In this document: positions 11,609-63,967 of the stretch, one piece after another
Position numbering within the stretch: position 1 is the first letter of the stretch
Layout: the number at the start of each line of letters is the position of its first letter
Assembly: GCA_038087875.1 (NCBI GenBank)
Contig: CM075990.1
Coordinates: 434,001 to 498,000, forward strand
DNA length: 64,000 bases
Source: Malacoraja senta
Taxonomy: Eukaryota
Reading direction: 5' to 3'
Program-made: the position numbers and the translations under genes
Notes under the pieces: model-generated
Told to the model about the DNA's origin: nothing
Databases searched by the model: none
The model's input: the letters and a program-made list of their open reading frames with translations, nothing else

Positions 11609-12302
11609 CTAGTCCAAGGGGGACTCATAGGGTCCTGTCCCCTCAACGGGTGTTTGCGGGGGTGGGGTGGTGGGCGGCCTGCGGCGTCACACACACACTA
11701 TCCACCCCCCCCCCCCCACACACACACACTAACCATTCTCCACACACACTTACCACCTCCCTTAATATTATATTAATACTAGACTAAGTGGGACCCGATG
11801 GGTCCCATGCTCACGGGAGGGCTGGTCCCCCAACGCAATATTCCACCTCTCCACCAATTGCAATATTGGTGGTCAGTGGAGACTGGGGGGCTTTCTGGAA
11901 CGCTAGTATGGGTGTTGTAGGCTGAAAGGACTGGTTTCCAGAGGACAAGTATGGACATTGTGGGCCAAATGGATTCTTGGGGTGGCAGCTCAGTCACTCA
12001 AACCTGATGTGCTGGCAGCTCACTCACGGCTGGTGGGCAGGCAGTTGACACGGTTATTCCTTGAAATTCCTTTTCAAGCAGGGTGCAAGGCCACCAAATT
12101 CAAATGCTGTTTCCTACCATTCCAAGCAGGGTGCAAGGCCACCAAATTCAAGTGCAGTTTCTTACCACTCCAAGCAGGGTGCAAGGCCACAAAATTCAAG
12201 TGCAGTTTCCTACCACTTCAAGCAGTGTGCAAGGCCACCAAACTCAAGTGCAGTTTCATGCCACTTCAAGCAGGGTGCAAGGCCACCAAATTCAACTGCA
12301 GT
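11609..12302 (-). mobile_element. Non-autonomous Helitron-like element, 3' part with two tandem hairpin+CTAG termini
   Basis: CTAG at 11609-11612 and 11779-11782, each next to a GC hairpin (tgggaccc-gat-gggtccca at 11789-11807) and followed by T on the minus strand. Confidence 0.75.
12076..12302. repeat. 48-bp minisatellite (caagcagggtgcaaggccaccaaattcaagtgcagtttcctaccactt), ~4.7 units
   Basis: 16-aa period QAGCKATKFKCSFLPL. Confidence 0.95.
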
Positions 12303-12498
12303 GGAGAGAAGGAATGGGTGACGTTTTGGGTCGAGACCCTTCTTCACACCGAATCGAGGAGCAGGAGGAATCACAGAGGGGGAGTAGCGAGAGAGGATGT
12401 TAGAGATCTCTCGTCAGAGAGAGGAAGAGAACATCTTCAAAGTAGACATACCTTGGGGAGATTTTGCATTGGAGCAGCAATAATGTGGTAGAAACGCC

Positions 12499-17407: not shown

Positions 17408-19825
17408 AAACTGTACATGAGTACAATAAATCCATATACAAGTACAAGTAATTTACAAAGAGAAAAATACCAGAGTACACAATATAGTGTGACAGCTTTC
17501 CAGCATTACAGGGACAGGGAAATCACAAGGGCCACATTGAGTTTGCTGATGAGAGGACCTTTCAGTAGTCTGATAAAAGCAAGGAAGTAGCTGTTCTGCC
17601 TGATGTGAGAAAGGAGAAAAGGGTTGTGAGGACTGTTTATGCTCTGGGTATCCTTCCAGCCTCATCACAGTTGCATCCACCCCTCATGAAGCTAGCTGGT
17701 CAGTTGGAACTCATAACTATTCCCCCATCCACTAGAGCCAGCAGCTTACATTCCACTGGTTGAGGCCACCCTTACTTCCCAGTGGAGTTCCAAATGGAGT
17801 CTAAAGAAGGATCTTGACCATAAACATCACCCATCCCTTCTGTCCAGAGATGCCGCCTGTCCCGCTGAGTTACTCCAGCATTTTGTGTCTATCTAAGGTG
17901 TAAACCAGCATCTGCAGTTCCTTACTACATCTTACTCCGACCAGCGCGGCCCGGGAAGGAAGCGGCCGTTCCAGATACTCCAATGCCGCTGAAGAGTCTT
18001 CTCCCGATGCCGGAACTCCATCATCCGGCGAGAGGGCCTATAACATCCAGCCACCGTTGCGACGAATGCGGAGGCCTCCAATAGGCCCCGACCTCGGGTG
18101 AACTAAGAGGAGGAGGACTGGACTTTTTAGTGCCTTCCCTCACAGTGGAAAGTTGCTTCTGCTGTGGGGGAACGTTCATGTTAAATTCTATAGTGTGTTG
18201 TGTCTTTTTTATTTTTATATTTTATATGGATGTATGGTAATCTGATTTCTTCTCTGTAAAGCACTTTGGCTTCAACTTGATTTGATTTAGAAGTGCTGTA
18301 TAAATAAAAATTACTTACTTACTTACTTACTTCCCAGTGGGCAGGAATGAACCTCAGCTCATGCCCACCAGACGCTGTGAAATTTTAATCCTGGACTTTG
18401 ACCCAACCAGCCCAGGTGGGCTGAAACTGGATGCCAGGACACAGCTTTTAATATGTGAATGTCACAAAACTGCTTTTGCAGTCCAGCTGCCTGGCCTCAT
18501 TAATGTCGGTTTCCTTTGAGCTACAAAACATTGGGCTCTGGCAATACATTGGGTCCAGTCATTCCTACTCCTTGTATGGTCTCTGCTTCGGCCTTTGAAC
18601 TTTGGGGTGACACGGTGGCGCAACGGCAGAGTTGCAGCCTTACAGCACCAGAGTCCCAGGTTCCATCCTGACTAAGATTCAAGATTCAAGAGAGTTTGTT
18701 GTCATGTGTCCCTGATAGGACAATGAAATTTTTGCTTTACTTCAGCACAACAGAACATACTAGGCATGAATACAGAACAGATCAGTGTGTCCATATACCA
18801 TTATATAAATATATACACACATGAATAAATAAACTGATTAAGTGCAAATAAACAGATAATGTGCTATTAATGTTCAGAGATTTGTCCGAGCCAAGTTTAA
18901 TAACCTGATGGTTGTGGGGAAGTAGCTATTCCTGAACCTGGTCGTTGCAGTCTTCAGGCTCCTGTAACTTCTACCTGAAGGTAGCGGGGAGATGAGTGTG
19001 TGGCCAGGATGGTGTGGTTCCTTGATGATGCTGCCAGCCTTTTTGAGGCAGCGACTGCGATAGATCCCCTCGATGGAAGGGAGGTCAGAGCCGATGATGG
19101 ACTGGGCAGTGTTTACTACTTTTTGTAGTCTTTTCCGCTCCAGGGCACTCAAGTTGCCGAACCAAGCCATGATGCAACCGGTCAGCATGCTCTCTTCACA
19201 TTGTGTTTCTGAATTTGTTGTTGTTGTTTTTTGGATCGAATTTCTGTCTTTAATTTGTGTATTGGTGATGTCTTTATAACTTATTTTACTCTGATTATAT
19301 GTTTCTTTGTTAAATTTTGTAAGGTGTCCTTGAGACTTTTGTATAGGCGCCCATAAATAAAATTTATTATTATTATTATTATTACTGTGGAGAATCGCTC
19401 GATCTCTCTTCTATACTCTGACTCATCCCCATCAGTGATACGTCCCACAACAGTGGTGTCGTCAGCGAACTCGATGATGGAGTTCACACTATGGACACTA
19501 CAGGAGAAGGAAGATCGTCAAGGCAACCAGAGTGTTTGCGGGGGGGGAGGTGGGGGGGAGGGTGGGGGGGGTGGGCGGCCTGTGGCCTATTCCACCTCTC
19601 CACAAATTCCAATATTGGTAGCCAGTGGAGGCTGGGGGGCTTTCTGGAACGCTAGTATGGGTGTTGTAGGCTGAAAGGACTGGTTTCCAGAGGGCGAGTA
19701 TGGACGTTGTGGGCCAAATGGATTCTTGGGGTGGCAGCTCAGTCACTCAAGCCTGATGTGCTGGCAGCTCACTCACGGCTGGTGGGCAGGCAGTTGACTC
19801 ACGGTTATTCCTTGAAATTCCATTT

Positions 19826-20246
19826 CAAGCAGGATGCAAGGCCACCAAATTCAAATGCTGTTTCTTAGCACTCCAAGCAGGGTGCAAGGCCTCCAAATTC
19901 AAGTGCAGTTTCCTACCACTTCAAGCATTGTGCAAGGCCACCAAACTCAAGTGCAGTTTCATGCCACATCAAGCAGGGCGCAAGGCCACCAAATGCAAGT
20001 GCAGTTTCATGCCATTTCAAGCAGGGTGCAAGGCCACCAAATTCAACTGCAGTTTGATGCCTTTTCAAACAGGGTTCAAGGCCACTAAATTCAAGTGCAG
20101 TTTTGTACCACTTCAAGCAGGGTGCAAGGTCACCAAATTCAAGTGCAGTTTTGTACCACTTCAAGCAGGGTGCAAGGCCACCAAATTCAAATGCAGTTTC
20201 ATAATTTCATGCAGGGTGCAAGGCCACCAAATTCAAATGCAGTTTC
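19826..20246. repeat. 48-bp minisatellite, ~9 units (remnant unit at ~20757-20808)
   Basis: Same unit as 12076-12302. Confidence 0.95.
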
Positions 20247-23875: not shown

Positions 23876-24565
23876 CTAGATTTTACAATAAATGCCGTGC
23901 CTTTTATTGCCTTTTTCATGATTTCACCAAAATGCCTTTTTCACGATCGAGTGCCCAAATCAGCCTTATTTTGCCGTTTTGCTAAAAGGTCGTACTATTT
24001 TCTCTAATTGTACCATGATTACAATGACTTTTCTATGTTAACACATTAATATTAATGTTATATTAAACGTGTTAACATAGTAGGGTTGGGCGGGGGTGTG
24101 TGGGCGGCAGGTGCTTTGGGCAGGGGGTGTGTGGGCGGGGGTGGGTAGGCGGGGGCGAGTTATGCGGGGGGGTGGGGGAAGGGGGGGCAGAGGGGGTGGG
24201 GGGTTGTGGGCTGGGGGGTTAGTTGTGGGTGTTTGGGGGTGTATGGGCGGGGGAGAGAGTTGTGGGGGGAGAGGGGTATGTGGGCGTGGGGGGGAGTGAG
24301 CTTGGATCCGCCGGGATCAGAGTCTCTGCTTTCCGTTTATCGACTTCGGCAACATCTCCGCCTCTGGGCTGAGCTGGGTCTCCCACGCTGGACTGGGCTG
24401 AGCAGGGTCTCCAATGCTGGGCTGGGTCGGGTCTCCAATCCTGGGCTGGGTCTCTGATGCTGGGTCTCCGACACTGGGTTGCTCGGGGCTGGGCTGCTTC
24501 GAGTCCCACCGAAAATTGTGTCCATTAATCTCCACCGGCCATCCTCGGCTCCAATAAAGATGCGA
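23876..24565 (-). mobile_element. Possible second Helitron-like element 3' end running into the gap; contains a G-rich tract (24083-24300) and ~25-bp repeats (24363-24497)
   Basis: Minus-strand caataaa...tttattg hairpin then taaaat-CTAG|T; abruptly interrupts a Rex1-type tail. Confidence 0.4.
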
Positions 24566-24765
24566 NNNNNNNNNNNNNNNNNNNNNNNNNNNNNNNNNNN
24601 NNNNNNNNNNNNNNNNNNNNNNNNNNNNNNNNNNNNNNNNNNNNNNNNNNNNNNNNNNNNNNNNNNNNNNNNNNNNNNNNNNNNNNNNNNNNNNNNNNNN
24701 NNNNNNNNNNNNNNNNNNNNNNNNNNNNNNNNNNNNNNNNNNNNNNNNNNNNNNNNNNNNNNNNN
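24566..24765. other. Assembly gap (200 N)
   Basis: Run of n. Confidence 1.
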
Positions 24766-28946: not shown

Positions 28947-30171
28947 ATGGAAAAATCGAGGGCCAAGTCTAAGTGGGCCGCGGCGAAACTGGCTGTGGAG
29001 GACTTCTGCTGCGAAACTGGCTGCGACCGACTTCACCACCTGGGTCGCTGACTGTGCAATCAGTAACCTCTGACTTGGTTCCTGCAGAATCTGCAGCGGT
29101 TCCCCAGGTTGGGGGTAAAGCCAAATGTAAGTCGGATAGGCCTGTGGACTCGGACGAGTCGGGCCGGGAAGATTCACCGCCTGCGGCAGGTAGCGCCCGT
29201 GGGTGTTTATCGCACATGGCGCGGTTAATGGAGCAAATGCTCCAACGTGACATACTCCAGCAGTCGGAGGTTTGTCAGCGTGGGCCTCCTTGGACACCCA
29301 CGGCAGCACCTAGTACAGGGCTGCACAATGTCTCCCTCTCCTTGGAGGGGAGCATAAGGAGTCAGTTCTGGGCTGGCTCTGAAGTCGGGGGTTTGGCTGA
29401 AGATTCATCTAGTGTGCTTGGGGTGCATGAAGCTCAGAAACTGCTTGGCATGGTCTCCAAATTCGCGATACCCTCACAAACAGGAGAGCCTTTACAAGAA
29501 CAGCTGGCTGCTAGTGTTGATTACCTTACATCCAACCAGCTGCAGGAGCAGGTAATGATCGACACAGCTGCTAAATATTTAGTGCCTGCTAACTGTGCTT
29601 CTTTGAATGTTCCTGCGGTGAATAATTGGATTTGGGGATACATTGGTGGGGGCATCAGAGCCCAAGAAGTCAAGACCCAAAGAATCCTCAAGCTGCTGAC
29701 TTCGGGTATAACGGCATTTGCCAGATCCATAGATGGAATTCTGTTGAGCAGCAGGATGCGCTGGCACTTTTATGCAATGCTCAGTTTGAGATCAATTGCT
29801 TTAGAAAGAGTGCGATCCGACCTGCCCTGAACCCCAAATTTGCGGGGTTGTGCAAAGCCAGCAACACTCAGCCGCCAAATTTACTATTCGGGGAGAACCT
29901 GTCAAAACTGGTCAAGGACCTGGATGAGGAGGCAAAGACTGTCGGGCTAATAAAGGCGCCGTCAACCAGCAAGACCTCGCAACTTCGGCGGCAGCACCCC
30001 TATGCATCCACCAGCAGGAAACGTTATCCGGAGGCTGGTGAAAGCTCGAAGGCTGTACATTCTGGACATAGGTCTTTTTTCGGCCAAGGCCCAGAACTGC
30101 CTTCTTGGAAAATGCGCCATCCCCACATTCCAGCTCCTCTACCCCCCAGGACTCGGGGACGGAAGAAGTAA
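28947..30171 (+). pseudogene. DIRS C gag-like ORF1 (frameshifted)
   Basis: PANCASLNVPAVNNWIW, IRPALNPKFAGLC, LLFGENL; homologous segments in D and E. Confidence 0.8.
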
Positions 30172-34050: not shown

Positions 34051-36140
34051 GGATGTAGGATGTAACTAGTAGAGTGGATAAGGGAGAACCAGTGGATATG
34101 TTATATCTGGACTTTCAGAAGGCTTTCGACAAGGTCCCACATAAGAGATTAGTATACAAACTTAAAGCACATGGTATTGGGGGTTCAGTATTGATGTGGA
34201 TAGAGAACCTATCTCAGCAACAGAACACTACAGAACAACTTTGTGCACTACCATCACTTGTTTTCTAATTGTGTTTTGCACTAATGTCTTGCTTTTACGT
34301 TTCTATGCGCTGCATTGTATAATTTATGTATAATTTATGTATCATTTATGTATTCTTTTGTTGTCTGAGTCTATGGATTTTAATTATACCTATACCTCAC
34401 TACAAGGTGAGGGTGGGAGGTGTGAGCAGTGCCTCGGAGGGGGGGGGAGAAACTAAACTACTTTTTTTCCCCCAATATCATATCGCCGGCCAGTAGTTTG
34501 ACAGCCCTGCTTTAAACCAATGCCCTCTAGTTCTTGAATCACATATGACGGAAAAAAGACTATGCATTCACCTTGTATATTCCCCTCGTGGTTTAACCCC
34601 GCCCCCCCTTAAAGGCGCCAAAATCACGCACACGGCCAGTGGCAGAATTACAGCACGACTGAATGTAAGTTTTGTAACATACCTACTTATGGCACTAGTC
34701 TCGGCGCAGCGGGTCCAGTCGCTGCACAAGTTGCGACTGGACACTATGGCAATAACTTCCAATAAAGTAACTTTCTATATATATGAGTTAGTTAAACAGA
34801 ATAGACCAGGGTCGTCCGGTCTTAAATTGGAGTTCTTAGCATACTCCATAGACCTTCGTCTGTGTATAGTCACTCATTTACATCATTATGTCAAGGTCAC
34901 TAAAAACCTGAGAGGCACTGAAATGGCATTATTGATGTGGATAGAGAACTGGCTGGCAGACAGGAAGCAAAGAGTAGGAGTAAACGGGTCCTTTTCACAA
35001 TTGCAGGCAGTGACTAGTGGGGTACCGCAAGGCTCAGTGCTGGGACCCCAGCTATTTACGATATATATTAATTATTTGGACGAGGGAATTGAATGCAATA
35101 TCTCCAAGTTTGCGGATGACACGAAGCTGGGGGGCAGTGTTAGCTGTGAGGAGGATGCTCGGAGGCTGCAAGGTGACTTGGATAGGTTGGGTGAGTGGGC
35201 AAATGCATGGCAGATGCAGTATAATGTGGATAAATGTGAGGTTATCCACTTTGGTGGCAAAAACAGGAAAGTAGACTATTATCTGAATGGTGGCCGATTA
35301 GGAAAAGGGGAGATGCAACGAGACCTGGGTGTCATGGTACACCAGTCATTAAAAGTAGGCATGCAGGTGCAGCAGGCAGTGAAGAAGGCGAATGGTATGT
35401 TAGCATTCATAGCAAAAGGATTTGAGTATAGGAGCAGCGAGGTTCTACTGGTTTCGGCCCGAAACGTTGCCTATTTCCTTCGCTCCATAGATGCTGCTGC
35501 ACCCGCTGAGTTTCTCCAGCATTTTTGTGTACCTGAGGTTCTACTGCAGTTGTACAGGGTCTTGGTGAGACCACACCTGGAGTATTGCGTACAGTTTTGG
35601 TCTCCTAATCTGAGGAAGGACATTCTTGCCATAGAGGGAGTACAGAGAAGGTTCACCAGACTGATTCCAAGGATGTCAGGACTTTCATATGAAGAAAGAC
35701 TGGATAGACTCGGCTTGTACTCGCTAGAATTTAGAAGATTGAGAGGGGATCTTATAGAAATGTACAAAATTCTTAAGGGGTTGGACAGGCTAGATGCAGG
35801 AAGATTGTTCCCGATGTTGGGGAAGTCCAGAACAAGGGGTCACAGTTTAAGGATAAGGTGGAAATCTTTTAGGACCGAGATGAGGAAAACATTTTTCACA
35901 CGGAGAGTGGAGAATCTCTGGAATTCTCTGCCACAGAAGGTAGTTGAGGCCAGTTCATTGGCTATATTTAAGAGGGAGTTAGATGTGGCTCTTGTGGCTA
36001 AAGGGATCAGGGGGTATGGAGAGAAAGCAGGTACAGGATACTGAGTTGGATGATCAGCCATGATCATATTGAATGGCGGTGCAGGCTCGAAGGGTCGAAT
36101 GGCCTACTCCTGCACCTATTTTCTATGTTTCTATGTTTCT
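34051..36140 (+). mobile_element. 5'-truncated CR1 carrying a templated insertion (34209-34929) and a Penelope-tail insertion (35451-35534)
   Basis: RT motifs [24 protein letters not shown]; tctatgtt tail. Confidence 0.93.
35451..35534 (+). mobile_element. 84-bp Penelope-type terminal repeat fragment with 12-bp TSD
   Basis: gaggttctactg at 35439-35450 and 35535-35546; insert gtttcggcccgaaacgttg...ctgagtttctccagcatttttgtgtacct. Confidence 0.82.
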
Positions 36141-37596
36141 AATGTAACCCCACTTTTTAAAAGGGAGGGAGAGAGAAATCAGGGAATTACAGACCAGTTA
36201 GTCAAACATCGGTAGTGGGGAAACTGCTAGAGTCAGTTATTAAAGATGGGATAGCAGCACATTTGGAAAGTGGTGAAATCATTGGACAAAGTCAGCATGG
36301 ATTTATGAAATGTAAATCATGTCTAACAAATCTTATAGAATTTTTCGAGGATGTAACTTGTAGAGTGGATAAGGGAGAACCAGTGGATGTGTTATATCTG
36401 GACTTTCAGAAGGCTTTTGACAAGGTCCCACATAAGAGATTAGTATACAAACTTAAAGCACATAGTATTGTGGGTTCAGTATTGATTTGAATAGAGAACT
36501 GGCTGGCAGACAGGAAGCAAAGAGTAGGAGTAAACGGGTCCTTTTCAGAATGGCAAGCAGTGACTAGTGGGGTACCGCAAGGCTCAGTGCTGGGACCCCA
36601 GCTATTTACAATATATATTAATGATTTGGACGAGGGAATTGAATGCAACATCTCCAAGTTTGCGGATGACACGAAGCTGGGGGCAGTGTTAGCTGTGAGG
36701 AGGATGCTAGGAGGCTGCAAGGTGACTTGGATAGGCTGGGTGAGTGGACAAATGCATGGCAGATGCAGTATAATGTGGATAAATGTGAGGTTATCCATTT
36801 TGGTGGCAAAAACAGTAAAGTATATTATCTGAATGGTGGCCGATTAGGAAAAGTGGAGATGCATCGAGACCTGGGTGTCATGGTACACCAGTCATTGAAA
36901 GTAGGCATGCAGGTGCAGCAGGCAGTGAAGAAAGTGAATGGTATGTTAGCATTCATAGCAAAAGGATTTGAGTATAGGAGCAGGGAGGTTCTAATGCAGT
37001 TGTACAGGGTCTTGGTGAGACCACACCTGGATTATTGCGTACAGTTTTGGTCTCCAAATCTGAGAAACGACATTCTTGCCATAGAGGGAGTACAGAGAAG
37101 GTTTACCAGACTGATTCCTGGGATGTCAGGACTTCCATATGAAGAAAGACTGGATAGACTCGGCTTGTACTCGCTAGAATTTAGAAGATTGAGGGGGGAT
37201 CTTATAGAAACTTACAAAATTCTTAAGGGGTTGGACAGGCTAGATGCAGGAAGATTGTTCACGATGTTGGGGAAGTCCAGAACAAGGGGTCACATTTTAA
37301 GGATTAGGGGGAAATCCTTTAGGACCGAGATGAGAAAAACATTTTTCACACAGAGAGTGGTGAATCTCTGGAACTCTCTGCCACAGAAGGTAGTTGAGGC
37401 CAGTTCATTGGCTATATTTAAGAGGGAGTTAGATGTGGCCCTTTTGGCTAAAGGGGTCAGGGGGTATGGAGAGAAGGCAGGTACGTGATACTGAGTTGGA
37501 TGATCAGCCATGATCATATTGAATGGCGGTGCAGGCTCGAAGGGCCGAATGGCCTCCTCCTGCACCTATTTTCTATGTTTCTATGTCTATGTTTCT
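36141..37596 (+). mobile_element. Second 5'-truncated CR1, head-to-tail after the first
   Basis: Starts at NVTPLFK-encoding DNA right after the previous tail; has its own tail. Confidence 0.94.
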
Positions 37597-42500: not shown

Positions 42501-44035
42501 TGGTCGAGGACTTTCTAGGCCAACGGTGGATATACTCACTGCAGCCTGGAGAAACAGTACTCAAAAACAGTATATGACATGTAATAAAAAATAAAAAAAT
42601 AAAAAAAATAAAAATGGGAATAATATGGTGTTCAAAAGAATATTCAATATGATACTGTAGTTATTGAAAATGTGTTAGAGTTTATGTACACTTTATTATG
42701 ATGAGGGTCTTAGCTATACTGCTATCAATACAGCTAGAAGTGCTTGGTCGGCATATCTTGTAATAGGTACACGGACACAAAGTATAGGTTCTCACCCTCT
42801 CATATCTAGGTTGATGAAAGGAATCTTTAATTCCAAACCGTCTAAGCCTAGGTATATGGTAATCTGCGAGGTAAGTGTTGTTCGTAACATACTTCGTCAT
42901 TGGGTCCTTGTCACGTCTAACTTTGTTAAAATTAACCATGAAATTGGCTATGCTAATGGCATTGGTGTCAGTACAGAGAGTGCAGACTTTCCGAAAACTT
43001 CAGTTCGAGAGAATGGAAGTGAATACAGAGAATGTTCTGTTTTATATTTCTGACCTGCTCAAACAAAGCAGGCCAGGTGCGACAGGTTTTAAGATTGTGT
43101 TCTCAGCATATCCCTACAGCTCCATGTTTATGTGTAAGGACACATTTGTTACATTACATTGAAGCCACAAGGGCTTTAAGACAAGAAGAAACGGGATTAT
43201 TTGTCAGTTACAAGAAGCCAACATAAAAGAGTGGCAGTTCAGACTATCTCAAGGTGGTTAAAGCAAGAGTTGGTTCAGGCAGGAATTAACATTTATGTGT
43301 TTACATCTCATTCCACTAGCGCAGTAGCAACATCCGCGGCCAGGGCGATGGACGTTCCCATCGACCATATATTAAAAGCCGCAGGTTGGAAAAATTAACT
43401 TGTGTTTCAGCAATACTACCATCGGCCGATTGCCGATAGAGGGCTGTTTGCCAACTCAATATTGAGTGCTGTTGCTATTATTTAAAGTCTGTTTTCAATA
43501 CTGTTTCATTCTGTTTTGTTTGTTGCCCTACATTAAGAGGGTTTATTGGTTGTTTTATGACCAAAAATAAAACTGTTTTGTTTTTGCATGATATGCAATG
43601 TCATGTTTACAACATTATTGATGATACTCAGTCAATCGATGCAGTGAGAAGCCGGGATTTTGATCTGCGGCATAAAAATCACAGAGCTTTAAAATCTTCA
43701 CGTAGTCACTCACGTGACTCCGAAGTAAAATAGTAAGATTAAACGAGAACTTACCAGTTTGAAGTTTGATCTTTATTTTATGAGGAGTTACGTTGGTGAT
43801 TACGTGCCCGCCACGCCCAAACCTCTCTCATAGAAAAAAGGTCATAATGGTAGTTCTCATGTTGATCATCTTAATATGTTACTTCAATTATGGTGTTGTC
43901 TGTGATTTCATACCGCTGCTTTGAAGATTGACGCGCATGTGCCCTGACGGGGTTCTTCACGTAATCACCAACGTAACTCCTCATAAAATAAAGATCAAAC
44001 TTCAAACTGGTAAGTTCTCGTTTAATCTTACTATT
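39548..44035 (+). mobile_element. DIRS1-like retrotransposon D with intact termini, ITRs and ICR (43696-43806); ORFs decayed, RT partly deleted
   Basis: Left ITR tacgtgaagaaccccgtcagggcgcatgcgcgtca versus right tgacgcgcatgtgccctgacggggttcttcacgta; recombinase remnants VQRVQT, QTISRWL, HSTSA, AAGW. Confidence 0.95.
40057..40300. repeat. ~84-bp tandem repeat (3 units) inside DIRS D gag
   Basis: ggctccgctggcagtgcctag..gagg.ctgctt repeated three times. Confidence 0.9.
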
Positions 44036-44249
44036 CTCCTTGTGACTGCGTGGGTTTCCTCTAGGAACTCCGGTTTCCTCCCTCACCCCGAAAATATGTA
44101 AATTGTAAATTGCCTTCATATGTAGATGAGGTGTAGATGAAAGGGAGTCTCTGTGGGCAGTTGATGGGAATGTAGGGGAAATAAATCTATTGGAGTAATG
44201 TTAATGGAAAATTGGGTGCTTGATGATTACAGACTCATAACTGAGTGCT

Positions 44250-52088: not shown

Positions 52089-53995
52089 TTACTTCGGAGT
52101 CACGTGAGTGATTCTGTGAAGAACCCCGCCAGTCCACATGCAGGTCATTACGTCTGACGCGTGGCGCAGCGACCGGCTTGGAGGTGCAGCGCTCCTCCAG
52201 CGGTAAGTTTAAAAACCCTCAGGTAAGTGTTAAACTTAGTCGGAGGTCGTTTTCTGCGCTTGGTAATTCTTGTTTCAGGAGACAAGTTTGAGTATGGAGA
52301 AAGCGTCGAAGGTGAAGTCAAGGCGAGCTGCCGGGAGAGTAGCTGTGGAAGACCGCGGGAGTGCGGGTAGCGGGCGGCCGCCTATCTCACCTACCGAGTC
52401 GCTGGCGGTACGGCCAGTGATTTCAGACTTGGTGTCCGAGAGCACCGTGGCTGCACCATTGGGGCGGAAAGCCACAAAAAAGTCTGCACGGCCCGTACTC
52501 GGATGAGTCGGGCCGGGAGGTTTCCTCTCCGGTAATGGATAACGTCTTTGGACGTTTGTCCAGGATGGAGCTCCTAATTGAGAGGATGCTCCACCAAGAT
52601 ACACTCCAACAGGAGGAGTTGTGTCAGCGCGGGTCTCCTCGGGGGCCCGCGCCAGCGGCACCTGTATCAGGGCTGCTTAATGTCTCCCTCTTGGAGGAGG
52701 AGAGCATGCGGAGTCAGTTTTATTCTGACGCCGAGTCTGTGGGTATAGCCATTGAGAATACCCCAAGGGATGAAGGGCACGAGCCAGAGGTACCAGTCCT
52801 GGCAGCAAGATTTGCCATCCCAACAGAAACAGGGGAGCCGCTGGGTGAAGAGTTGGCTGCAAGTATAAATTATCTGCCTCACACCAGCTTCAAGAGCATA
52901 CTATGGATGAAACGTCCAGAAAATATGAGACCCCTGTTAGTTGTGTGCTGCTCAAAGTGCCGGCGGTTAACCACGCCATCTGGGGTCATATGGGTGTAGG
53001 CATCAGAGCTCAGGAACTGAGGCTTCAGAGGGTTCTGAAGCTGCTCGCCTCGGGCATTACAGCGTTCGCCAGGTCAGTGGATGGAGGGCACCTGTCTGAT
53101 GAGCAGCTGGATGCCCTGGCCCTCAATTGCAATGCACACTTTTAGATTAATTGCCTCCAATGTTTCTAGAGGAGCAATCCTCTTTCTCCATTACAATCCA
53201 GTCCACTTGCTGGGCGGAGTTATCCATCAGTTGAATCATATTTTTAATATTTACTGACCAATAATAATACATAAAATTAGGTAGTGCTAAACCCCCTAAT
53301 AGTTTAGGTTTATTCAGATGAGTTTTTTGTATTCTATGTGATTTATAGTCCCATATAAAATTAGTGATATTTGAGTCGAGTTTTTAAAAAAACTTCTTTG
53401 GTAAGTATATAGGAATTGATTGAAATAGGTATAAAATTTGTGGTAAAAAGATCATTTTTATTGAGTTTATTCGGCCTATTAAAGACATCGGGAGCGTTTT
53501 CCAGAATTTAATTAGTGTGTTTAATTTATTAAGTAAGGGGTCAAAATTTGCCCTAAACATACCTTGATATGATCTGGTAATTTCTTTTTTTTTTTTTTAA
53601 TTTTTATTTATTAGAAGTACATTACATTACAACCACATACATTAATACTCGTCATTTATATCTTCTTACAATTAATGTACTCCCTTTATTTATTTTTTTA
53701 CACTAGAGAAAGAAAAGATTGAAAGAGAGAAGAAAGTAAAGGAAAAAGTGCAAGTGTAGAAAAGTGTAGAAAATGTAACAACAAAAAAGAACGAAGACCC
53801 TATAAGAGCGAAATTAAAAACAAAAAGAAAAAGAGTTAAGAAATAGGCCCTAAGAAAAGAAAAGAGAAAGAGAAAAAAAGAGAAACAAATGTTTTTTTTT
53901 TTTGAGCATCACGTAAATAGGACATACCAACTCTTCAACTATCATCCCCCCTTACCCGACCTCAATTTTTTATTTTTTTAAAGTACTTTTGCACC

Positions 53996-56900
53996 CTATG
54001 TTTGTAATAATTCTATAAATGCAGACCACGTCAGGTGGAAGTGATCTGGATTACCTGCTAGGAGGAGTCTTATCTCTTCAAGGTGTAATGTTTCAAACAT
54101 ATTTGAAATCCACATATTTATAGTTGGTATTGGAGCCTTCTTCCAAAATTTTAGAATTAGCTTTTTTCCAGTTATTAACCCATAATCCATTAATTTCTTT
54201 TGAAACACATTTAGTTCTGGATCATCTTCCGTTATTCCGAAGATAATCCATTCTGCTTTGGGTATCAGTCTTGTTTTAAATAACTTTGTAAAGATTTCAA
54301 AAATTTCATTCCAAAATTTTTGAATTTTTGTACAGAAGACAAATGAGTGCGCTATAGTTGCTTCTTGGGATTGACATTTATCACAAATAGATGATACGTT
54401 TGGGAAAATTTTATGAATTTTAGTTTTCGAATAATATAATCTATGTAAAATTTTAAATTGTATTAAAGTGTGTCTTACATTAATCGAGCATTTATGCACT
54501 TTTAATAAGTATTCATTCCAACTTTCCTTTGAAATTTTAATAGCTAACTCTTGTTCCCAGTCTCTTCTGATACCCTCCGTAGATAGTATTTGTGCATTTA
54601 AGATAATATTGTACAAATATGATATTAAGTTTGCTGATTCCGCTTTTATCTGCATTGCCTCGTCCAGTACATCTGCTGGGTTATTATGATGATCTTTTGT
54701 ATATTTTTTCAAATAGTCGCATATTTGAAAGTATTTAAAATATTGATTATTTCCGAGTTTATATTTTATTTGTAATTGTTGAAATGAAAGTAATTTTCCA
54801 GTTTCATACAAGTCACCAAGCGTTTTAATTCCTAGTCTATCCCATTGTGTATAAGCTTTATCTATAATAGAAGGACTAAACGAAGGGTTATTGACTATAG
54901 GTAATAAAAGTGATAAGTTTCTTAATTTTAAATTTTGTTTTATTTGTTTCCAAATACGGATTGTACTATGAATAATTGGGTTCTTATTATAGTTTATGTT
55001 ATTCAATTTCATTGGAGAGAGGAGGATCGCTCCAATGTTTCTAGAGGAGCAATCCTCTTTCTCCATTACAATCCAGTCTACTTGCTGGGTGGAGTTATCC
55101 ATCAGTTGAATCATGTTTTTAATATTTACTGACCAATAATAATACATAAAATTAGGTAGTGCTAGACCCCCCAATACTTTAGATTTATTCAGATGGGTTT
55201 TTTGTATTCTATGTGATTTATAGTCCCATATAAAATTAGTGATATCTGAGTCGAGTTTTTTAAAAAACTTCTTAGGTAAGTATATAGGAATTGATTGAAA
55301 TAGGTATAAAATTTGTGGTAAAAAGATCATTTTTATTGCGTTTATTCGGCCTATTAAAGACATCGGGAGCGTTTTCCAGAATTTAATTAATGTATTCAGT
55401 TTATTAAGTAGGGGGTCAAAATTTGCCCTGAACATACCTTGATATGTTCTGGTAATTTCGATTCCCAAATATTTAAATTTTTCTGTAGCTATTTTAAAAG
55501 GGAATTTTAAAAGATGTGTTGAATCTTTCGGTTTTATTGACATAATTTCACTTTTATTCCAATTTATTCTATATCCAGAAAATGATCCGAAGTCTTCAAT
55601 TAAATTTAATATATTTGGTATAGTGATTTGAGGTTTTGTAATATACAATAATATATCATCCGCGTATAAAGATATTTTATTATATGAGTCTTTAGTATTA
55701 TATCCATGAATATCAGGGTGTATTCTAATTTTTTCTGCTAGCGGTTCAATAATGAGAGCAAACAGCTGTGGTGATAATGAGCATCCTTGTCTATTTCCCC
55801 TTGATAGTTGAAATTTCAAGGATAATATGTTATTAGTAAGTATTCTAGCTGTAGGTTTGTTATATAGTAACTTAATCCATAAAATAAAATTCTCTCCCAG
55901 TTGAAATTTTTGTAATACTTTATCCATATAATTCCATTCTACTTGATCAAATGCTTTTTCAGCATCCAGCGAAATAATTGATAATTCTTGATCTTCAGAT
56001 TTGTGTGAGTGCATTATGTTGAGTAGACGTCTCATATTATTAGAAGAGTATCTCTTAGGGATAAACCCTGTCTGATCTGGGTTTATTAATTTACTAATGT
56101 ATTTACTTAATCTTCTAGCTAATGTTTTCGCTAATATTTTTTGATCTGTGTTTAACAATGCTATAGCTCTATATGAGCCAGGTTCTTCTAAATCTTTATT
56201 TTTCTTAGGTATTAATGTAATCGTTGATTCCGCTAATGTATCAGGTAGTATTCGTTTTTTAAAAGCGTATTGGTACATTTTTTGTAATCTTGGTATTATT
56301 TTATCATAAAAGCTTTTATAAAATTCATTAGTAAATCCATCAGGGCCTGGTGTTTTTCCATTTTTTAGTGAGTTTATTGTATCTTCTAATTCCTTAATTG
56401 AGATTTGTGCACCCAGTTCCTCTTGTTCCTTCAGCTCTAACTTTGGAAGATTACAGGTATCCAAGAACTTTGTGATATTATTGGAATCAATTATCGTTTT
56501 AGATGTATACAAATTCTCGTAAAATTGCGCAAATCTTTTATTAATATCCTTCGGTGTTGTTAATAATTCCCCTTTATCTGATTTGATCTTTGGTATAGTA
56601 TGTTCCTTTTCTCGTTTTTTTAGCTGGCGAGCCAAAAGTTTATGCGGTTTATCCCCAAATTCAAAGTGCTCTTGTTTTGTAATTTGAAAAAGTCTTATAC
56701 GTTTGGCAGATAATAATTTATTTAATTTAAATTTTGAAATTATTATTTTATTATGTTTATCTATTGATGGATCTTTAGCATTATCTATATCCATTTGTCT
56801 AATAAGTTCTTCTAACTGTCTTTGTTCATTCTTATTCTTTTTATTTTGAAAAGCTTGATATGAAATTATAATACCCCTAATGTATGCTTTAAAAGATTCC

Positions 56901-57765
56901 CAAAGTAAAGTAGGCGATATATCTGAAGTATCATTTGTTTGAAAAAAGACCTCCATTTGTTCTTTTAAATATATACTCGCTTGTGGATCTTTTAAAATTT
57001 GAGTTAAATCTCCAGAATGAATTATTCTTAGACAATCCTTCCAGTTTTAAAAAGAAAGTTAGTGGAGAATGGTCTGAAATTGAATTTGTATGGTATATTG
57101 CATTAGATGTTTGGGGGATTAATTTTGTATCCAGCAGAAAGTAGTCTATACGTGAGTATGTCTTATGTACCATTGAGTAAAACGAATATTCCCTGCCAGT
57201 TGGATTCACAATTCTCCAAACATCTGCTATATTAGTGTTATTTATGTAGGTATTGAGGAGTTCCCCAGTTTTCGATTTCATATTCCCTCTCTGTTTTTGA
57301 CTTGATTTATCTAAGTACGGATCTAAAACACAGTTAAAGTCTCCGCCTATTATAACATTTTGATAGTTTGACTCTGCAATTATATTGAAGATTTTATTGA
57401 AAAAGTGGGGGTTATCAAAGTTAGGGGCATATATATTTACCAAAGTAAGTGGAGTGTCATGGATTTCTCCATTAACTATTAGGTATCTCCCTTCTATATC
57501 TGTTATAATATTCTTTGCTTTAAATGGTATACCTTTTCTTATGATAATTGACGTGCCTCTAGATTTTGAAGTGAATGAAGAGTGGTATGTTTGACCTATC
57601 CATTTTGCCCTCAGCCTAACTTGGTCCTGAGGTTTTAGGTGTGTTTCTTGTACGAAGGTAATGTCAGAATTATACATTTTTAGCTGAGCTAATATCTTAC
57701 CCCTTTTGATAGGTTCGTTAATACCTCTTATATTCCTCCTAGGTTCTTTTGTGTGGTGTCATGCA
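53996..57765 (-). pseudogene. L1 ORF2 (APE, RT, C-terminal Cys-rich region); frameshifts near 57735 and 57000
   Basis: NIRGINEPIKR, VQETHL, NIYAPN, GGDFN, SRIDY, ISDH; KTPGPDG, SLDAEKAFD, RQGCSLSP, LYADD; CDKC..H..C. Confidence 0.95.
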
Positions 57766-58572
57766 TTTTGAATAATTATAGTACCTTTGAATCTTGTGGT
57801 GCGTCCATGTCCCAGGTCTTTAGGTATTGGGGGAGTTTTTGAATTATTAACTTTTGTTGGTATGTCCATATTACTCTTATCACTAAACACAAAACACAAA
57901 CAAGTGATTTTATGTGATAAAAAAAAAACTAAAAAAGTGAGGCTACAGTGTCTATAGTCGGCACTGTAGCGAGTGACCCACCTGTAGGTGGGAAAAAACC
58001 TTATTTTGACTTCCATTGCGTTGTTGCTCAACTAGCTCCGCTCTCTTAGTTAATCATAACATATTAAAATATTAAAACGAGGCCTCACATTCAGATATAT
58101 AATACAATTTTACCCTGATATTTCCTTATAACATATATATATATCAGAGTTTAATTATTAAACCAATATTTTTGATTTCAATAAGAATCAACTGTTGGTT
58201 GAAGGGGTTAACGAGACGTGCTCCTGGACATAAGCCAGGAGCTCGTTTCTCATCCCCTCCTCCCGCTTATAGACAAGGTTACAATTTATTAAAAATTCAT
58301 ATTAGTATGTTAGTTCATTATTTTTTTGTTTTTTTTGCTAGTATTCTAATCTAACCTGCATAACTTTTAAAGTTGTTAATAGGATAAGTTCTTACAATTG
58401 GTTATAACATTTTAATCAATAAGCAATTATTTTCTAATTCATATTCCATCTGTAAAGTTGTTTACACGTTTTGAACAGAAAATGTCCTTGCTTCAACATT
58501 CCAGAGATAACAGTGTAACTATCCCCAGACAAAACATAGCTGAGAATTATTCGGATCTGCCAAAGCTCCCTT

Positions 58573-59643
58573 TTATTTCTGTTTTTCAACAATCGTTTGG
58601 GCATATTTGAAAGCGTCTTCAGGCTTAACAAATGACTTTTCAAGACCATTAAAGGAAATACGCATTTTCGCGGGATAAAAAACCCCAAATCTGACCCCTT
58701 CTCTCCCTCTTAAAAGATCTTTAACCTTATCAAATTTGTTTCTTTTTTGCACAATTTCATGTGGGTAGTCCCTGAATATCTTAATAGTGTCCTTGTCCAG
58801 CCGTAATTGTACACCATATTTGATTTTACTCATAACGTATTCCAGTTCTGCAGTATCTCAAAATTTCACTATAATATGTCGTGGATAAGCTTTTCCCGCA
58901 TCAGATCTTTTTCCAAATCTTGGGACACGATGAGCCACTTCGATTTTCGGTTCCTTGGAAAGATTCAACAGTTGTTTCAACAAGCCCATGGCAAATTCAC
59001 GTACCTGTTCCCCTTCTGCCCCCTCTGAAACACCAAGAATTCTCAAATTCTGGCGTCTAGAGCGAGCTTCCAGGTCCAGGCATTTGAATGAGACTTTCTC
59101 TAATTGAGTCCCCATTTGTAGTGATGCTTGTTCGTTTTCTCGCCTCATTTGCTCATGTTCTTGCCTCAATTTCGCCATGTCTTCAACCAGTCGTGCCATA
59201 TTTTTCTCCAATTCCGTAATTGTGTGCATACTTGCAGCTACTGTTTCAAGTACAGCCGTGAACTTATCCGTAGTAATTACATCCATCTTATCCATTTTCT
59301 CTGATAGTCCATCTTTCACCTCATCAATTCGTTTATTCATAATGTCCAGTAAATCCGTCATATTCTTCTGGTTACCAGCGTTTAAATCCTTCATCATCTT
59401 CTCCATTCCTTCCATCATTTTTGCCGAATTTTCCTTCATTTCCTTCTTATCTTCCACCCTATTATCCGAGATCTCATCTTTCAAATTTTTCATTGATTTC
59501 TTCAAGTCATCAAAGTCTTTCTTAGATCTTGTATCCATTTCTGCAGCCACTTCAGAGACTTCAGAGGTAACTTCTGCTTCGAACTTTTTCGACAGCTTAT
59601 TCACAGCTCTCTGAGGGCTCACAGCTGGAGGCAATTTACTCAT
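58573..59643 (-). pseudogene. L1 ORF1 (coiled coil, RRM, CTD); frameshift near 58858
   Basis: DLEARSRRQNLRILGVSEG, EVAHRV, PRHIIVKF, IFRDY, FYPAKMRI. Confidence 0.92.
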
Positions 59644-62035
59644 TTAAAGGGCTTCAAACCACCGTTTAAAACATCGCGTTTAACGATGACGTCATCAGCG
59701 CGGTAACCAGAAGCTCCGGTAAGGTTTTTAAAAACAATCCCGATTTTCGGACCCGTTTTACACGATAAATCGTGAAGTTTTTCGGGAGAGGAGCTGGGTG
59801 CACGTCTGTTAGTCTAACATGACGCCACCGGAAGTCTGATCTGGTAATTTCTATTCCCAAATATTTAAATTTTTCTGTAGCTATTTTAAAAGGGAATTTT
59901 AAAAGATGTGTTGAATCTTTCGGTTTTATTGACATAATTTCACTTTTATTCCAATTTATTCTATATCCAGAAAAAGGTCCAAAGTCTTCAATTAAATTTA
60001 ATATATTTGGTATAGTGATTTGAGGTTTTGTAATGTACAGTAATATATCATCCGCGTATAAAGATATTTTATTATATGAATCTTTAGTATTATATCCATG
60101 GATATCAGGGTGTATTCTATTTTTTTCTGCTAGCGGTTCAATAATGAGAGCAAACAGCTGTGGTGATAATGAGCATCCTTGTCTATTTCCCCTTGAGAGT
60201 TGGAATTTCGAGGATAATATGTTATCAGTTAGTATTCTAGCTGTAGGTTTGTTATATAGTAACCAATGAAACTGAATAACATAAATTATAATAAGAACCC
60301 AATTATTCATAGTACAATCCGAATTTGGAAACAAATAAAACAAAATTTAAAATTAAGAAATTTATCACTTTTATTACCTATAGTCAATAACCCTTCGTTT
60401 AATCCTTCTATTATAGATAAAGCTTATACACAATGGGATAGATTAGGAATTAAAACGCTCGGTGACTTGTATGAAACTGGAAAATTACTTTCATTTCAAC
60501 AATTACAAATAAAATATAAACTCGGAAATAATCAATATTTTAAATATTTTCAAATATGCGACTATTTGAAAAAATATACAAAAGATCATTATAATAACCC
60601 AGTAGATGTATTGGACGAGGCAATGCAGATAAAAGCGGAATCAGCAAACTTAATATCATATTTGTATAATATTATCTTAAATGTACAACTACCATCTACG
60701 GAGGGTATCAGAAGAGACTGGGAACAAGAGTCAGCTATTAAAATTTCAAAGGAAAGTTGGAATGAATACTTATTAAACGTGCATAAATGCTCGATTAATG
60801 TAAGACACACTTTAATACAATTTAAAATTTTACATAGATTATATTATTCGAAAACTAAAATTCATAAAATTTTCCCAAATGTATCATCTATTTGTGATAA
60901 ATGTCAATCCCAAGAAGCTACTATAGCGCACTCATTCGTTTTCTGTACAAAAATTCAAACATTTTGGAATGAAATTTTTGAAATCTTTACAAAGTTATTT
61001 AAAACAAGACTGATACCCAAAGCAGAATGGATTATCTTCGGTATAACGGAAGATGGTCCAGAACTAAATGTGTTTCAAAAGAAACTAATGGACTATGGGT
61101 TAATAATTGGAAAAAAGCTAATTCTAAAATTTTGGAAGAAGGCTCCAATACCAACTATAAATATGTGGATTTCAAATATGTTTGAAACATTACACCTAGA
61201 AGAGATAAGACTCCTCCTAGCAGGTAAACCAGATCACTTCCACCTGACGTGGTCTGCATTTATAGAATTATTACAAACATAGGGTGCAAAAGTACTTTAA
61301 AAAAAAAAAAAAAAAAAATTGAGGTCAGGTAAGGGGGGATGATAGTTGAAGAGTTGGTATGTCCCATTGACGTAATGCTCATAAAAATATTTGTTTTTCT
61401 CTTTTTCCTCTTTCTCTCTCTCTTTCTTTCCTAGGGTCTATTTCTTAACTCTTTTTCTTTTGTTTTTAATTTAGCTCTTATAGGGTCTTCGTCCTTTTTT
61501 GTTGTCACATTTCCTACACTTTCACTTTTTCCTTCACTTTCTTCTTTCTTTCAATCTTTTCCTTTTCTAGTGTAAAAAATAAATGGAGTACATTAATTGT
61601 AAGAAGATATAAATGACGAGTACTAATGTATGTGGTTGTAATGTAATGTACTTCTAATAAATAAAAATAAAAAAAATAAAAAAGATTAATTGCCTGAGGA
61701 AGAGTGCCATCCACCCTACTATCAACCCTAAGTTTGTCGCTCTGTGCAAGCCCAGCAATATCCAGCCACCAAATCTGCTGTTCAGTGAAGACCTCTCTAA
61801 AAGAGTTAAGGAGCTGGACGACGAGGCAAGAACGGTCGGACTCATCAAAGCACCGACGACCAGCAGAACCTCTTTTCGGCGGCAGCACCCCAACAAACGG
61901 CTCGCTGAAACCGGTTCGCGACAAGGACCAAGCCGGCCATTCATAAATATGCACAGCTGGCGCACTCCAACAGGGGCACGGGCGAATATGTCCTTACCCC
62001 CCACAAACAGGGGGCAGAAAATTCCACCGATAACC

Positions 62036-63967
62036 ATGTAGGTAGGTGGGTTTGGTTCTTGTCGAATCATATTAAGTGGGAATCACCTACAAGTTGGGGG
62101 GAGATTACACTTCATTTTGAAGGAATGGTATGGGATAACATCAGATCCGTTTATACTGCACAGTATACAAGGGTTTCGAATTGAATTCCTTCTCAATTTG
62201 CGTCCACCCACACAGCATACACCAAACTGGACATTTGTTTTCTCACAAAAAGAGAATTTGGAGGTACAAGCTGAAATTGAAAATTTATACAAAAAAGGGG
62301 TAATTGAGAAGGCGGTTCACCAACCTCACCAATTTGTGTCTAATATTTTTCCTAGGCCAAAGAAGGATGGGAGCTGTCGAATCATCCTTGACTTGATGAG
62401 CCTTAACACCTTTGTGCAGTATAAACATTTCAAAATGGAAACCTTTGTTACTGCCAAACAATTGATTTCCAGAGGATGTATGGCATGGATAGATCTTAAA
62501 GATGCATATTATTCAGTGCCTGTTCATAGGGATCATCGGAGATATTTGAAGTTTAGCTGGATGAGGCAATTATGGCAATTTAAAGCACTGCCTAATGGGT
62601 TAACCTCGGCCCCTAGACTATTTACAAAACTGTTAAAACCATTGCTGGGGCTACTCCGGGCTCAGAGTCATATTGTAATAGCTTATTTGGATGATATTTT
62701 AATCATAGGGAAGACTCGGGAAGCAGCTGAATTATCTGTGTCAGCTGTTAAACTCATGTTTGAGAGATTGGGGTTGCTCAACCATCCAGTTAAATCCAAA
62801 TTGATACCAGTTAGAGTTATTGATTATTTGGGATTCACTATTAACTCAACTCACATGTCTGTGACTCTGCCCAGGTGCAAGAGATTAGACTTAATTGAAG
62901 GCTGTAACAAGCTCATGATGGAGCAGCAACCTTCAATTAGACATGTGACCAGCTTGATTGGCAAATTAGTGGCTGCCTTTCCAGCTGCACAGTTTGGACC
63001 TTTGCACTATCAAAATTTACAACGTGCAAAGGAGCAGGCACTCGGGGTACATGCAGGTCATTTTGACAAGCCTGTGCAATTAACAGCTGAAGCCATTGCT
63101 GAAGTGCAGTGGTGGATAGTGAGCATTTGGAGTTGCTCTGGGAAAGTTCTGATTGAGAAACCTTCAGTTGTCTTACAGACTGATGTTAGTACCCTAGGAT
63201 GGAGTGCTACTGATACCATCTCTAGCTGTGGAGGCAGATGGAATATGCATGAGGCATTTATTCTTCAATCACATGGGATTAGCTATTTAGAACTGTTGGG
63301 AGCATTCTATGGTGTTATGGCTTATTGTACTAGTATGCGTCACTTGCATGTTCAGCTTCAGATTGACAACACTACGGCAGTGGCGTATGTTAATCACATG
63401 GGTGGAATCAAGTCGGAATCTTGTGATAGATTGGCTAACCTTATTTGGCACTGGTGTATTACAAGAAATATTTGGGTTTCAGCTATCTACCTACCAGGTA
63501 GATTAAACATGGTGGCAGACACCAGGTCATGTAAATTCAATGACAACACAGAATGGATGTTGAATCATGATGTATTTAATGATATTGTTGTTCGGTATGG
63601 GATGCCAGATATCGATTTGTTTGCATCCAGACTCAATCACCAGTTACCGAAGTATGTTTCATGGGAACCAGACCCAGGGGCAGTAGCGGTAGATGCATTC
63701 TCGCTACACTGGGGTGGAATGTTTTTATATGCATTTCCCCCATTTTGCCTCATCATTCGGTGCTAGCTCAAGATCAAGCAGGACGACGCCTCAGGAGTTT
63801 TGGTGGTACCCGACTGGCCTACACAGCCATGGTTCCCACTCGTTTTGGGGATAATAACACAGCCTATTATGACTGTCCCGAAACGTAGTGACCTACTGGT
63901 GCACCCTGTAACTGGGGATCAACATCCATTACATGACCGTATTGATCTATTAATTTGCAGATTCTGA
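62036..63967 (+). pseudogene. DIRS E pol: RT, RNase H and adenine-methyltransferase-like domain; single frame with two nonsense codons (62039, 63764)
   Basis: 549-aa ORF with IDLKDAY, LPNGLTSAPRLFTK, YLDDIL, TDVS, YLEL, IDNTT, DLFASRLN, YAFPPF. Confidence 0.95.

What the first reader, a model, noticed from the sequence alone, without database searches (positions are those of the whole stretch)
53144..61695. 5'-inverted (twin-priming-type) L1 in a fish-like genome, with the inversion point on an RNA stem-loop
Seen: a 13-bp TSD at a tttt/aga site brackets an 839-bp inverted piece (equivalent to 55032-55870 of the full L1) and a forward 3' piece (equivalent to 55015 to the tail). About 14-16 nt are missing at the inversion point, with ct and c microhomologies at the junctions. 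The missing bases are the loop of a perfect 8-bp hairpin, cattggag-N12-ctccaatg (55010-55037), so both pieces begin ccaatg. Established: TSD, inversion, small deletion and microhomology are the twin-priming signature, described mainly for mammalian L1. I do not know of a description in cartilaginous fish. Inference: the mechanism is older than mammals and RNA structure may set the internal priming site.
Basis: partly seen in the sequence, partly recalled or inferred. Interest (0 to 1): 0.75.

Follow-up and report, generated by a model that had tools for sequence, protein, structure and literature searches.

The report
Front-flipped L1 in a cartilaginous fish
One L1 jumping-gene copy in what is likely a shark- or ray-type genome sits with its front part backwards, likely made by the "twin priming" copying accident well known from mammals, and its break lies at the foot of a predicted strong RNA hairpin, a single case that hints at, but does not show, a role for RNA folding.

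Summary
The structure is real. A 13-bp TSD brackets an 839-bp inverted piece and a 1,420-bp forward piece with A-tail. The pieces abut in L1 coordinates (14-17 nt missing; CT and C microhomologies) and diverge alike (p=0.29). A full-length L1 of the same family, with its own 16-bp TSD, later landed inside the inverted piece. Sizes match human twin-primed L1 (median deletion 14.5 bp).

A longer hairpin (55065-55013, -29.9 kcal/mol, strongest in ORF2, matched by 1 of 5,000 synonymous recodings) wins. The missing bases lie in its 3' arm, and the forward piece starts 2-3 nt inside its base (8 of 3,346 positions as low; post hoc, n=1).

No genome was held. Contigs showed one other opposite-strand joint (1 of 15 shown) but not this junction. 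I found no paper on a cartilaginous-fish case, but key subscription papers were not held. This scan has noted similar flips in RTE and other LINEs on other DNA (unchecked). Verdict: known mechanism in a new host, with a testable hairpin lead.

The parts
53144..53156 (+). Left copy of the 13-bp TSD of the inverted L1; its last 2 nt (CT) are the 5' microhomology
53157..53585 (-). Inverted piece, first part (equals 55032-55460 of the nested copy; ORF2 sequence)
   Evidence: 95.6% over 430 nt; 18 of 413 differences
53570..53585 (+). Left copy of the 16-bp TSD of the nested L1
53586..59836 (-). Nested full-length L1 of the same family, younger than the inverted copy; used as the reference
53996..57758 (-). 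ORF2 of the nested L1 (endonuclease, RT, weak zf-RVT), broken by a frameshift near 57000-57046
58573..59643 (-). ORF1 of the nested L1 (coiled coil, weak L1-type RNA-binding match), in-frame stop at 58858-58860
55013..55065 (-). Predicted long RNA hairpin in ORF2 (5' arm 55065-55046, loop 55045-55034, 3' arm 55033-55013), read from the nested copy as a proxy for the source RNA
55010..55037 (-).
59837..59852 (+). Right copy of the 16-bp TSD of the nested L1
59853..60263 (-). Inverted piece, second part (equals 55461-55871)
   Evidence: 96.5% over 427 nt
60263..60263 (.). Inversion junction, 1-nt microhomology (C)
60263..61682 (+). Forward 3' piece: end of ORF2, 3' UTR, AATAAA and A-rich tail (equals 55015 to the tail)
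   Evidence: 94.1% over 1,441 columns
61683..61695 (+). Right copy of the 13-bp TSD
52421..53143 (+). Left part of the interrupted host retroelement (DIRS-like; label recalled, from no call)
   Evidence: 66% to the paralogue at 29461-29799
61696..63766 (+). Right part of the host retroelement, with an RT frame at 62042-63766
   Evidence: 73% to 29789-30000; RVT_1 E 1.8e-18

Best explanation
This is a single L1 insertion with an inverted front part, likely made by twin priming, in what is likely a cartilaginous-fish genome, and later split by a full-length L1 of the same family. Shown: one TSD around both pieces, near-abutting breakpoints, microhomologies, like divergence, the nested element with its own TSD. 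Inferred steps: (1) the endonuclease nicked the bottom strand at TAATCT/AAAA and RT copied about 1.4 kb from the A-tail; (2) that copy stopped at 55015, 2-3 nt into the base of the strongest predicted ORF2 hairpin, likely a pause site (my odds that the hairpin is causal: about 0.4); (3) the top strand was nicked 13 nt away and its 3' end (...CT) primed on the AG at 55031-55030 and copied 839 nt upstream; (4) the two copies were joined through one C, losing the 14-17 nt between them; (5) later another family member inserted into the inverted piece.
For: TSD unique and single-copy in the paralogous empty site. Pieces 14-17 nt apart in L1 coordinates, with 2-nt and 1-nt microhomologies. Divergence from the nested copy: 31 of 823 in the inverted piece against 29 of 1,019 in forward ORF2, Fisher p=0.29. 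Human tumour L1 inversions: 66% have an internal deletion, median 14.5 bp, median forward 1.51 kb and inverted 0.54 kb (passages of 10.1101/2024.08.27.596794); TSDs of 10-20 bp (passages of PMC4245944). ORF2 matches human L1 ORF2p at E 3.4e-131. A second opposite-strand joint in this family, 54347/55058, stands in one contig of run X12. Hairpin: second-lowest z and energy of 309 windows; 1 of 5,000 synonymous recodings and 0 of 30 recoded whole ORFs reach it; 8 of 3,346 stop positions face a structure as stable.
Against: The junction itself was not among the 15 of 53 joints shown, so there is no independent read support. Microhomologies of 1-2 nt are common by chance. Primer pairing at the site is unremarkable (320 of 6,100 positions as good; rough, because RNA parameters were used and the terminal-pair constraint was not fully enforced). 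Hairpin link: n=1; the test was chosen after seeing the fold; the fold is read from a copy 3-4% diverged and the deleted arm cannot be read in the inverted copy; the primed AG is paired, not in the loop; the other joint has no hairpin ahead of 54347 (-3.5 kcal/mol, 62% of positions as low); joint ends in the hairpin were 2 of 50 against 0.42 expected, P=0.068; two distant L1s lack a hairpin at this motif (416 and 322 of 500 recodings fold as well). Only 1 of 15 shown joints changes strand, against 1,685 loose ends, so inversions look much rarer here than the 31% in human and chimpanzee; this is a weak inference from collapsed contigs.
Confidence: 0.85

Rival explanations
1. Twin priming as above, but the hairpin is a bystander: breakpoints fall by chance and by 1-2 nt microhomology, as the standard human model has it.
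For: Deletion size and piece lengths are typical of human cases. The other opposite-strand joint has no hairpin ahead of 54347. One case, post hoc test.
Against: Only 8 of 3,346 positions face so stable a fold; even the whole 53-nt span is 1.6% of that range. Loop-linked twin priming has a precedent for U5 snRNA, four of four (passage of PMC4476161).
Confidence: 0.5
2. One cDNA, cut and flipped: RT read through to 55871, the single-stranded cDNA folded (the 8-bp hairpin forms once 55037 is copied), was cut at the fold, and the freed 5' part was joined backwards to the top strand by end-joining. This would give the first reader's hairpin a role, in DNA.
For: The cDNA fold is the 8-bp hairpin (-7.7 to -9.1 kcal/mol) for ends at 55037-55055. 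Both pieces begin CCAATG in exact register, 0.07-0.18% by chance, about 2% with 2-nt slip. Hairpin cleavage at L1-made breaks is proposed for flanking DNA (passages of 10.1101/2024.12.14.628481).
Against: Once the cDNA reaches 55066 the long hairpin wins in DNA too (-12.8), and this model needs cDNA to 55871. The shared CCAATG follows in part from the long hairpin's own GGAG/CTCC repeats. No case of this route for L1 bodies was seen in the passages read.
Confidence: 0.07
3. An ordinary 5'-truncated L1 that later suffered a local 839-bp inversion, perhaps at a cruciform from the same palindrome.
For: One breakpoint lies in a long imperfect palindrome. An earlier scan note (e1-7146221) preferred this reading for a fungal LINE.
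Against: The other breakpoint would have to fall exactly on the TSD edge while leaving the 13 bp intact.
Confidence: 0.04
4. Two or three independent L1 insertions in opposite orientation, or an assembly misjoin between family members.
For: The family is very abundant (49,410 and 25,751 contigs laid in X11 and X12), nests in itself here, and no read support for the junction was seen.
Against: The inverted piece has no tail and no TSD of its own; the two pieces abut within 14-17 nt on a 6.2-kb element; a misjoin would not create two exact TSDs, one checked against a paralogous empty site.
Confidence: 0.04

Closest known systems
5'-inverted (twin-primed) L1 insertions of human and chimpanzee (model of Ostertag and Kazazian 2001, paper not held; as described in PMC2912911 and 10.1101/2024.08.27.596794)
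   Same: One TSD of 10-20 bp, inverted and truncated 5' piece, short internal deletion, microhomology at both junctions, forward piece longer than the inverted one.
   Different: Host is likely a cartilaginous fish; the element is a fish-type L1 (best hits about 50% identical, named ones from teleosts); frequency here is unknown and may be far below 31%; the breakpoint sits at a strong predicted RNA hairpin, which the passages read do not discuss.
One 5'-inverted insert of zebrafish Nimb-2_DR in chicken DT40 cells (PMC4245944, passages)
   Same: A fish LINE giving a 5' inversion outside mammals.
   Different: Engineered cell-culture event of another clade; that paper found no inversions for human L1 in chicken cells or for ZfL2-1, and concluded that inversion depends on host and LINE.
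Antisense U5/L1 chimeras made by twin priming (PMC4476161, passages)
   Same: RNA structure is linked to the internal priming point (all four truncations in one loop).
   Different: Human, a second RNA in trans, priming in a single-stranded loop; here the primed bases are predicted to be paired and the link is to where the first copy stops.

Membership tests
L1-clade LINE | ORF2 with APE endonuclease, RT and C-terminal Cys region, closest to L1 ORF2p | tested here: met
   Exo_endo_phos E 5.2e-15, RVT_1 E 5.1e-39, zf-RVT E 4e-4 below cut-off; human ORF2p E 3.4e-131 against R2 1e-24
L1-clade LINE | ORF1 with coiled coil and L1-type RNA-binding domain | tested here: inconclusive
   Transposase_22 E 0.013, below cut-off; top solved match human ORF1p E 0.023; the frame is cut by a stop and the second part matched nothing
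L1-clade LINE | A-rich tail and variable TSD of about 7-20 bp | tested here: met
   13-bp and 16-bp TSDs, AATAAA plus A-rich tails
L1-clade LINE | Placement in L1 rather than Tx1 on an RT tree | not tested
   No tree was built; similarity only
Twin-primed 5'-inverted insertion | One TSD around both pieces | tested here: met
   with paralogous empty site
Twin-primed 5'-inverted insertion | Inverted and forward pieces adjacent in element coordinates, with a small deletion or duplication | tested here: met
   14-17 nt deletion
Twin-primed 5'-inverted insertion | Microhomology at the 5' junction and at the inversion junction | tested here: met
   2 nt and 1 nt; too short to exceed chance alone
Twin-primed 5'-inverted insertion | Endonuclease-type target on the first-nicked strand | tested here: inconclusive
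   TAATCT/AAAAGT, a loose match; this family's own consensus is unknown
Twin-primed 5'-inverted insertion | Both pieces from one RNA (same age and lineage) | tested here: met
   3.8% against 2.8% divergence, p=0.29; low power
Twin-primed 5'-inverted insertion | Two separate priming events on one RNA | not testable with these tools
   Mechanistic step, inferred from the product
Twin-primed 5'-inverted insertion | Junction present in independent reads | tested here: inconclusive
   Not among 15 of 53 joints shown; contigs only

The most novel reading that the evidence does not exclude
Twin priming is an ancestral property of vertebrate L1, active in cartilaginous fish, and the breakpoint is programmed by the RNA: this L1 lineage carries a selected hairpin inside ORF2 (third codon positions tuned to pair, over a conserved E-D-C / A-I-L peptide) that stalls its own reverse transcriptase and makes an inversion and truncation hotspot.
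Probability: 0.2. Interest if true: 0.7.

Novelty: new member of a known kind. Interest (0 to 1): 0.42.

Why it matters
[quoted passage not shown] A natural case with human-like dimensions in a likely cartilaginous fish would put the capacity near the root of jawed vertebrates and means repeat annotation there splits such copies in two. Why the first copy stops where it does is an open question for L1. A very abundant family with one outstanding hairpin inside ORF2 makes the 'RNA structure sets the breakpoint' idea directly testable by counting. One dead copy has no evident function for the host.

Tried and rejected
Genome-wide count: no genome is held. Laying four runs on the full-length L1 gave contigs only; 15 of 53 joints and 24 of 1,685 loose ends were shown, most joints have short sides, and the look-up of joined forms was not given. 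X13 and X15 laid few contigs (156 and 41).

Priming set by best complementarity: not supported, rough test. Hairpin conservation: no close relatives with DNA were found (one locus at 37%, whose match ends before the motif; none; four loci; eight). Only 2 of these 13 loci cover the motif and neither folds there; at 30-33% identity this says little about the lineage. No Rfam match in 53000-62000. Other 5'-inverted LINEs in the window: none among the 9 CR1 segments mapped; the two minus-strand ones end at the 3' terminus and are separate copies. Pfam gave no family for the host element's other frames.

Literature: searches showed no natural fish, shark, amphibian or plant case in listings or in the passages read; one search is void, since its term missed a paper known to hold the phrase. 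PMC311219 and PMC1716264 are not held.

Full report
Anatomy. Read on the plus strand, the region is: host retroelement, TSD (53144-53156), inverted L1 piece part 1 (53157-53585), a full-length L1 on the minus strand (53586-59836), inverted piece part 2 (59837-60263), forward L1 piece with tail (60263-61682), TSD (61683-61695), host retroelement. Against the full-length copy, part 1 matches 55030-55459 at 95.6%, part 2 matches 55445-55871 at 96.5% and the forward piece matches 55015 to the tail at 94.1%. The two parts overlap by a 16-bp exact repeat, the TSD of the nested copy, so the nested copy is the younger. Counting that repeat once, the inverted piece is 839 bp.

The outer TSD is real. 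It occurs twice in 64 kb, at the two edges. The flanks, aligned separately to a paralogue of the host element, end at 29799 and resume at 29789, so the paralogue holds the 13-mer region once. The host has an RT frame; I call it DIRS-like from recall, not from a call. On the first-nicked strand the outer target reads TAATCT/AAAAGT and the nested one ATTTCT/ATTCCC.

One event. The pieces are 14-17 nt apart on a 6.2-kb element, with CT shared at the 5' junction and C at the inversion junction. Differences from the nested copy are 31 of 823 and 29 of 1,019, p=0.29, mostly synonymous (36 synonymous and 22 non-synonymous codons, one a stop). This argues against separate insertions and against a later inversion, which would need a break exactly at the TSD edge.

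Element and host. ORF2 carries endonuclease and RT domains and matches human L1 ORF2p at E 3.4e-131. Its C-terminal half finds 88 relatives, at best 53% identical; the named ones are teleost proteins. ORF1 is only weakly L1-like. The window's CR1 is closest, among named hits in the best 120 of 7,727, to a bamboo shark (75%) and a manta (64%); one 63% hit is filed under a bacterium; birds and turtles give 44-56%. The host is therefore likely a cartilaginous fish; this rests on a repeat, not a host gene.

The hairpin. It folds in 32-48-nt excerpts, but in the 131-nt excerpt a longer hairpin replaces it (z -6.5), and in four contexts of 86-701 nt its mean pair probability is 0.0 while the long stem pairs at 0.74-1.0. 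The long hairpin spans 55065-55013. It ranks second of 309 windows by z and by energy and is the strongest in ORF2. Keeping the protein and drawing codons by ORF2 usage, 1 of 5,000 draws folds as well, and the best hairpin in each of 30 recoded whole ORFs reached -19.9 at most, against -29.9. The peptide it encodes is conserved in fish-type relatives, but whether their DNA folds could not be tested, and two distant L1s do not (2 of 2). In this fold the missing bases lie in the 3' arm, the forward piece begins 2-3 nt inside the base, where an RT coming from the tail would first meet the stem, and the internal primer lands 2-4 nt below the loop on paired bases. Of 3,346 possible stop positions 8 face a structure as stable (14 of 6,000 over the whole element). 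That figure is post hoc, from one event, and read from a proxy copy; the inverted copy differs from it at 1 of 48 positions over 55032-55079 and 2 of 26 over 54990-55015.

Other copies. No genome is held. Two of 16 listed runs hold 0.68 of the words of 59500-62300. Four runs were laid on the full-length L1. The family is abundant in X11 and X12. Of 53 joints 15 were shown, one of them opposite-strand (54347/55058, one contig, 39 letters on the shorter side); its geometry and TSD cannot be read. The junction studied here was not shown. Position 54347 has no hairpin ahead; 55058 lies in the 5' arm of the long hairpin, and another joint ends at 55028. Two of 50 listed joint ends fall in the hairpin against 0.42 expected, P=0.068 (25 distinct joints from tables 5 and 5c, many with short sides). 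At most 39 opposite-strand joints against 1,685 loose ends suggests inversions are a few percent or less, but collapsed contigs make this weak.

What is in print. I read passages of PMC4245944, PMC5389967 (reference list only), PMC2912911 (and section 8), PMC6007223, 10.1101/2024.12.14.628481, PMC4476161, PMC13174262, 10.1101/2024.08.27.596794, PMC11484939 and PMC4859970; no whole texts and no supplements. 5'-inverted copies are 639 of 2,068 recent human and chimpanzee L1s. In tumours 66% carry an internal deletion, median 14.5 bp, explained as the first copy failing to reach the internal primer: this case is typical. Outside mammals the passages give one zebrafish Nimb-2 insert in chicken cells. 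Nine working searches showed no natural fish or shark case, but the library lacks the older Okada-laboratory papers on zebrafish L1, so absence from print is not established. Earlier notes of this scan report similar flips in RTE, dinoflagellate and fungal LINEs; they are unchecked AI notes, which suggest the pattern is widespread and supplied the rival readings tested above.

Verdict. Observation confirmed. Twin priming 0.85. Within that, hairpin causal about 0.4; rival confidences overlap with the best explanation for that reason. A new member of a known kind, interest 0.42; up to 0.7 if the hairpin proves a selected breakpoint hotspot.

Noticed in passing
window 55013-55065 (minus strand): Unusually strong hairpin inside L1 ORF2, with G/C third positions in an ORF of 24% GC3 and codon-antisense arms (E/L, D/I, C/A); a candidate cis-acting RNA element in its own right.
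   Followed up: partly
window 58200-58260, 57933-58013, 59002-59081 (minus strand): Three more strong predicted hairpins in the full-length L1: two in the ORF1-ORF2 spacer, one in ORF1 (-35.3, -24.9, -38.4 kcal/mol).
   Followed up: no
window 55410-55466 and 53570-53585: The nested L1 landed at the position equal to 55445-55460, inside another predicted hairpin (-20.5 kcal/mol; z -4.25). Run X12 shows another joint from the L1 5' end (59836) to 54851, perhaps a second L1-in-L1 insertion.
   Followed up: no
window 61305-61330 and 53958-53979: An internal A-run just after the ORF2 stop, 21 nt in the inverted copy and shorter in the nested one, ahead of a long low-complexity 3' UTR.
   Followed up: no
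window 34497-36146: A 515-codon open frame joins a recombinase-like frame of the host-type element to CR1 RT sequence; the CR1 piece is interrupted near 35450 with an 11-nt overlap.
   Followed up: no
window 516-1027 and 14043-14554; 11953-12350 and 19752-20245: Two duplicated tandem arrays (36-nt and 48-nt units); the first lies in a duplication about 13.5 kb apart, 98-99% alike where compared.
   Followed up: no
window 43723-44041: 84-nt inverted repeat, 98% complementary, 151 nt apart; MITE-like.
   Followed up: no
window about 24565-24764: A run of 200 N (assembly gap) inside a CR1 copy, far from the finding.
   Followed up: no
L003:5001-6173, L004:5001-6164, L005:5001-6284: Three large viral contigs (186-211 kb) each carry a roughly 400-residue L1-like RT segment, 39-41% identical to this ORF2.
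   Followed up: no
L006 (whole contig), L002:548-3424: Long open L1 ORF2 frames in a bacterial MAG contig and in a small viral-collection contig, likely host contamination.
   Followed up: partly
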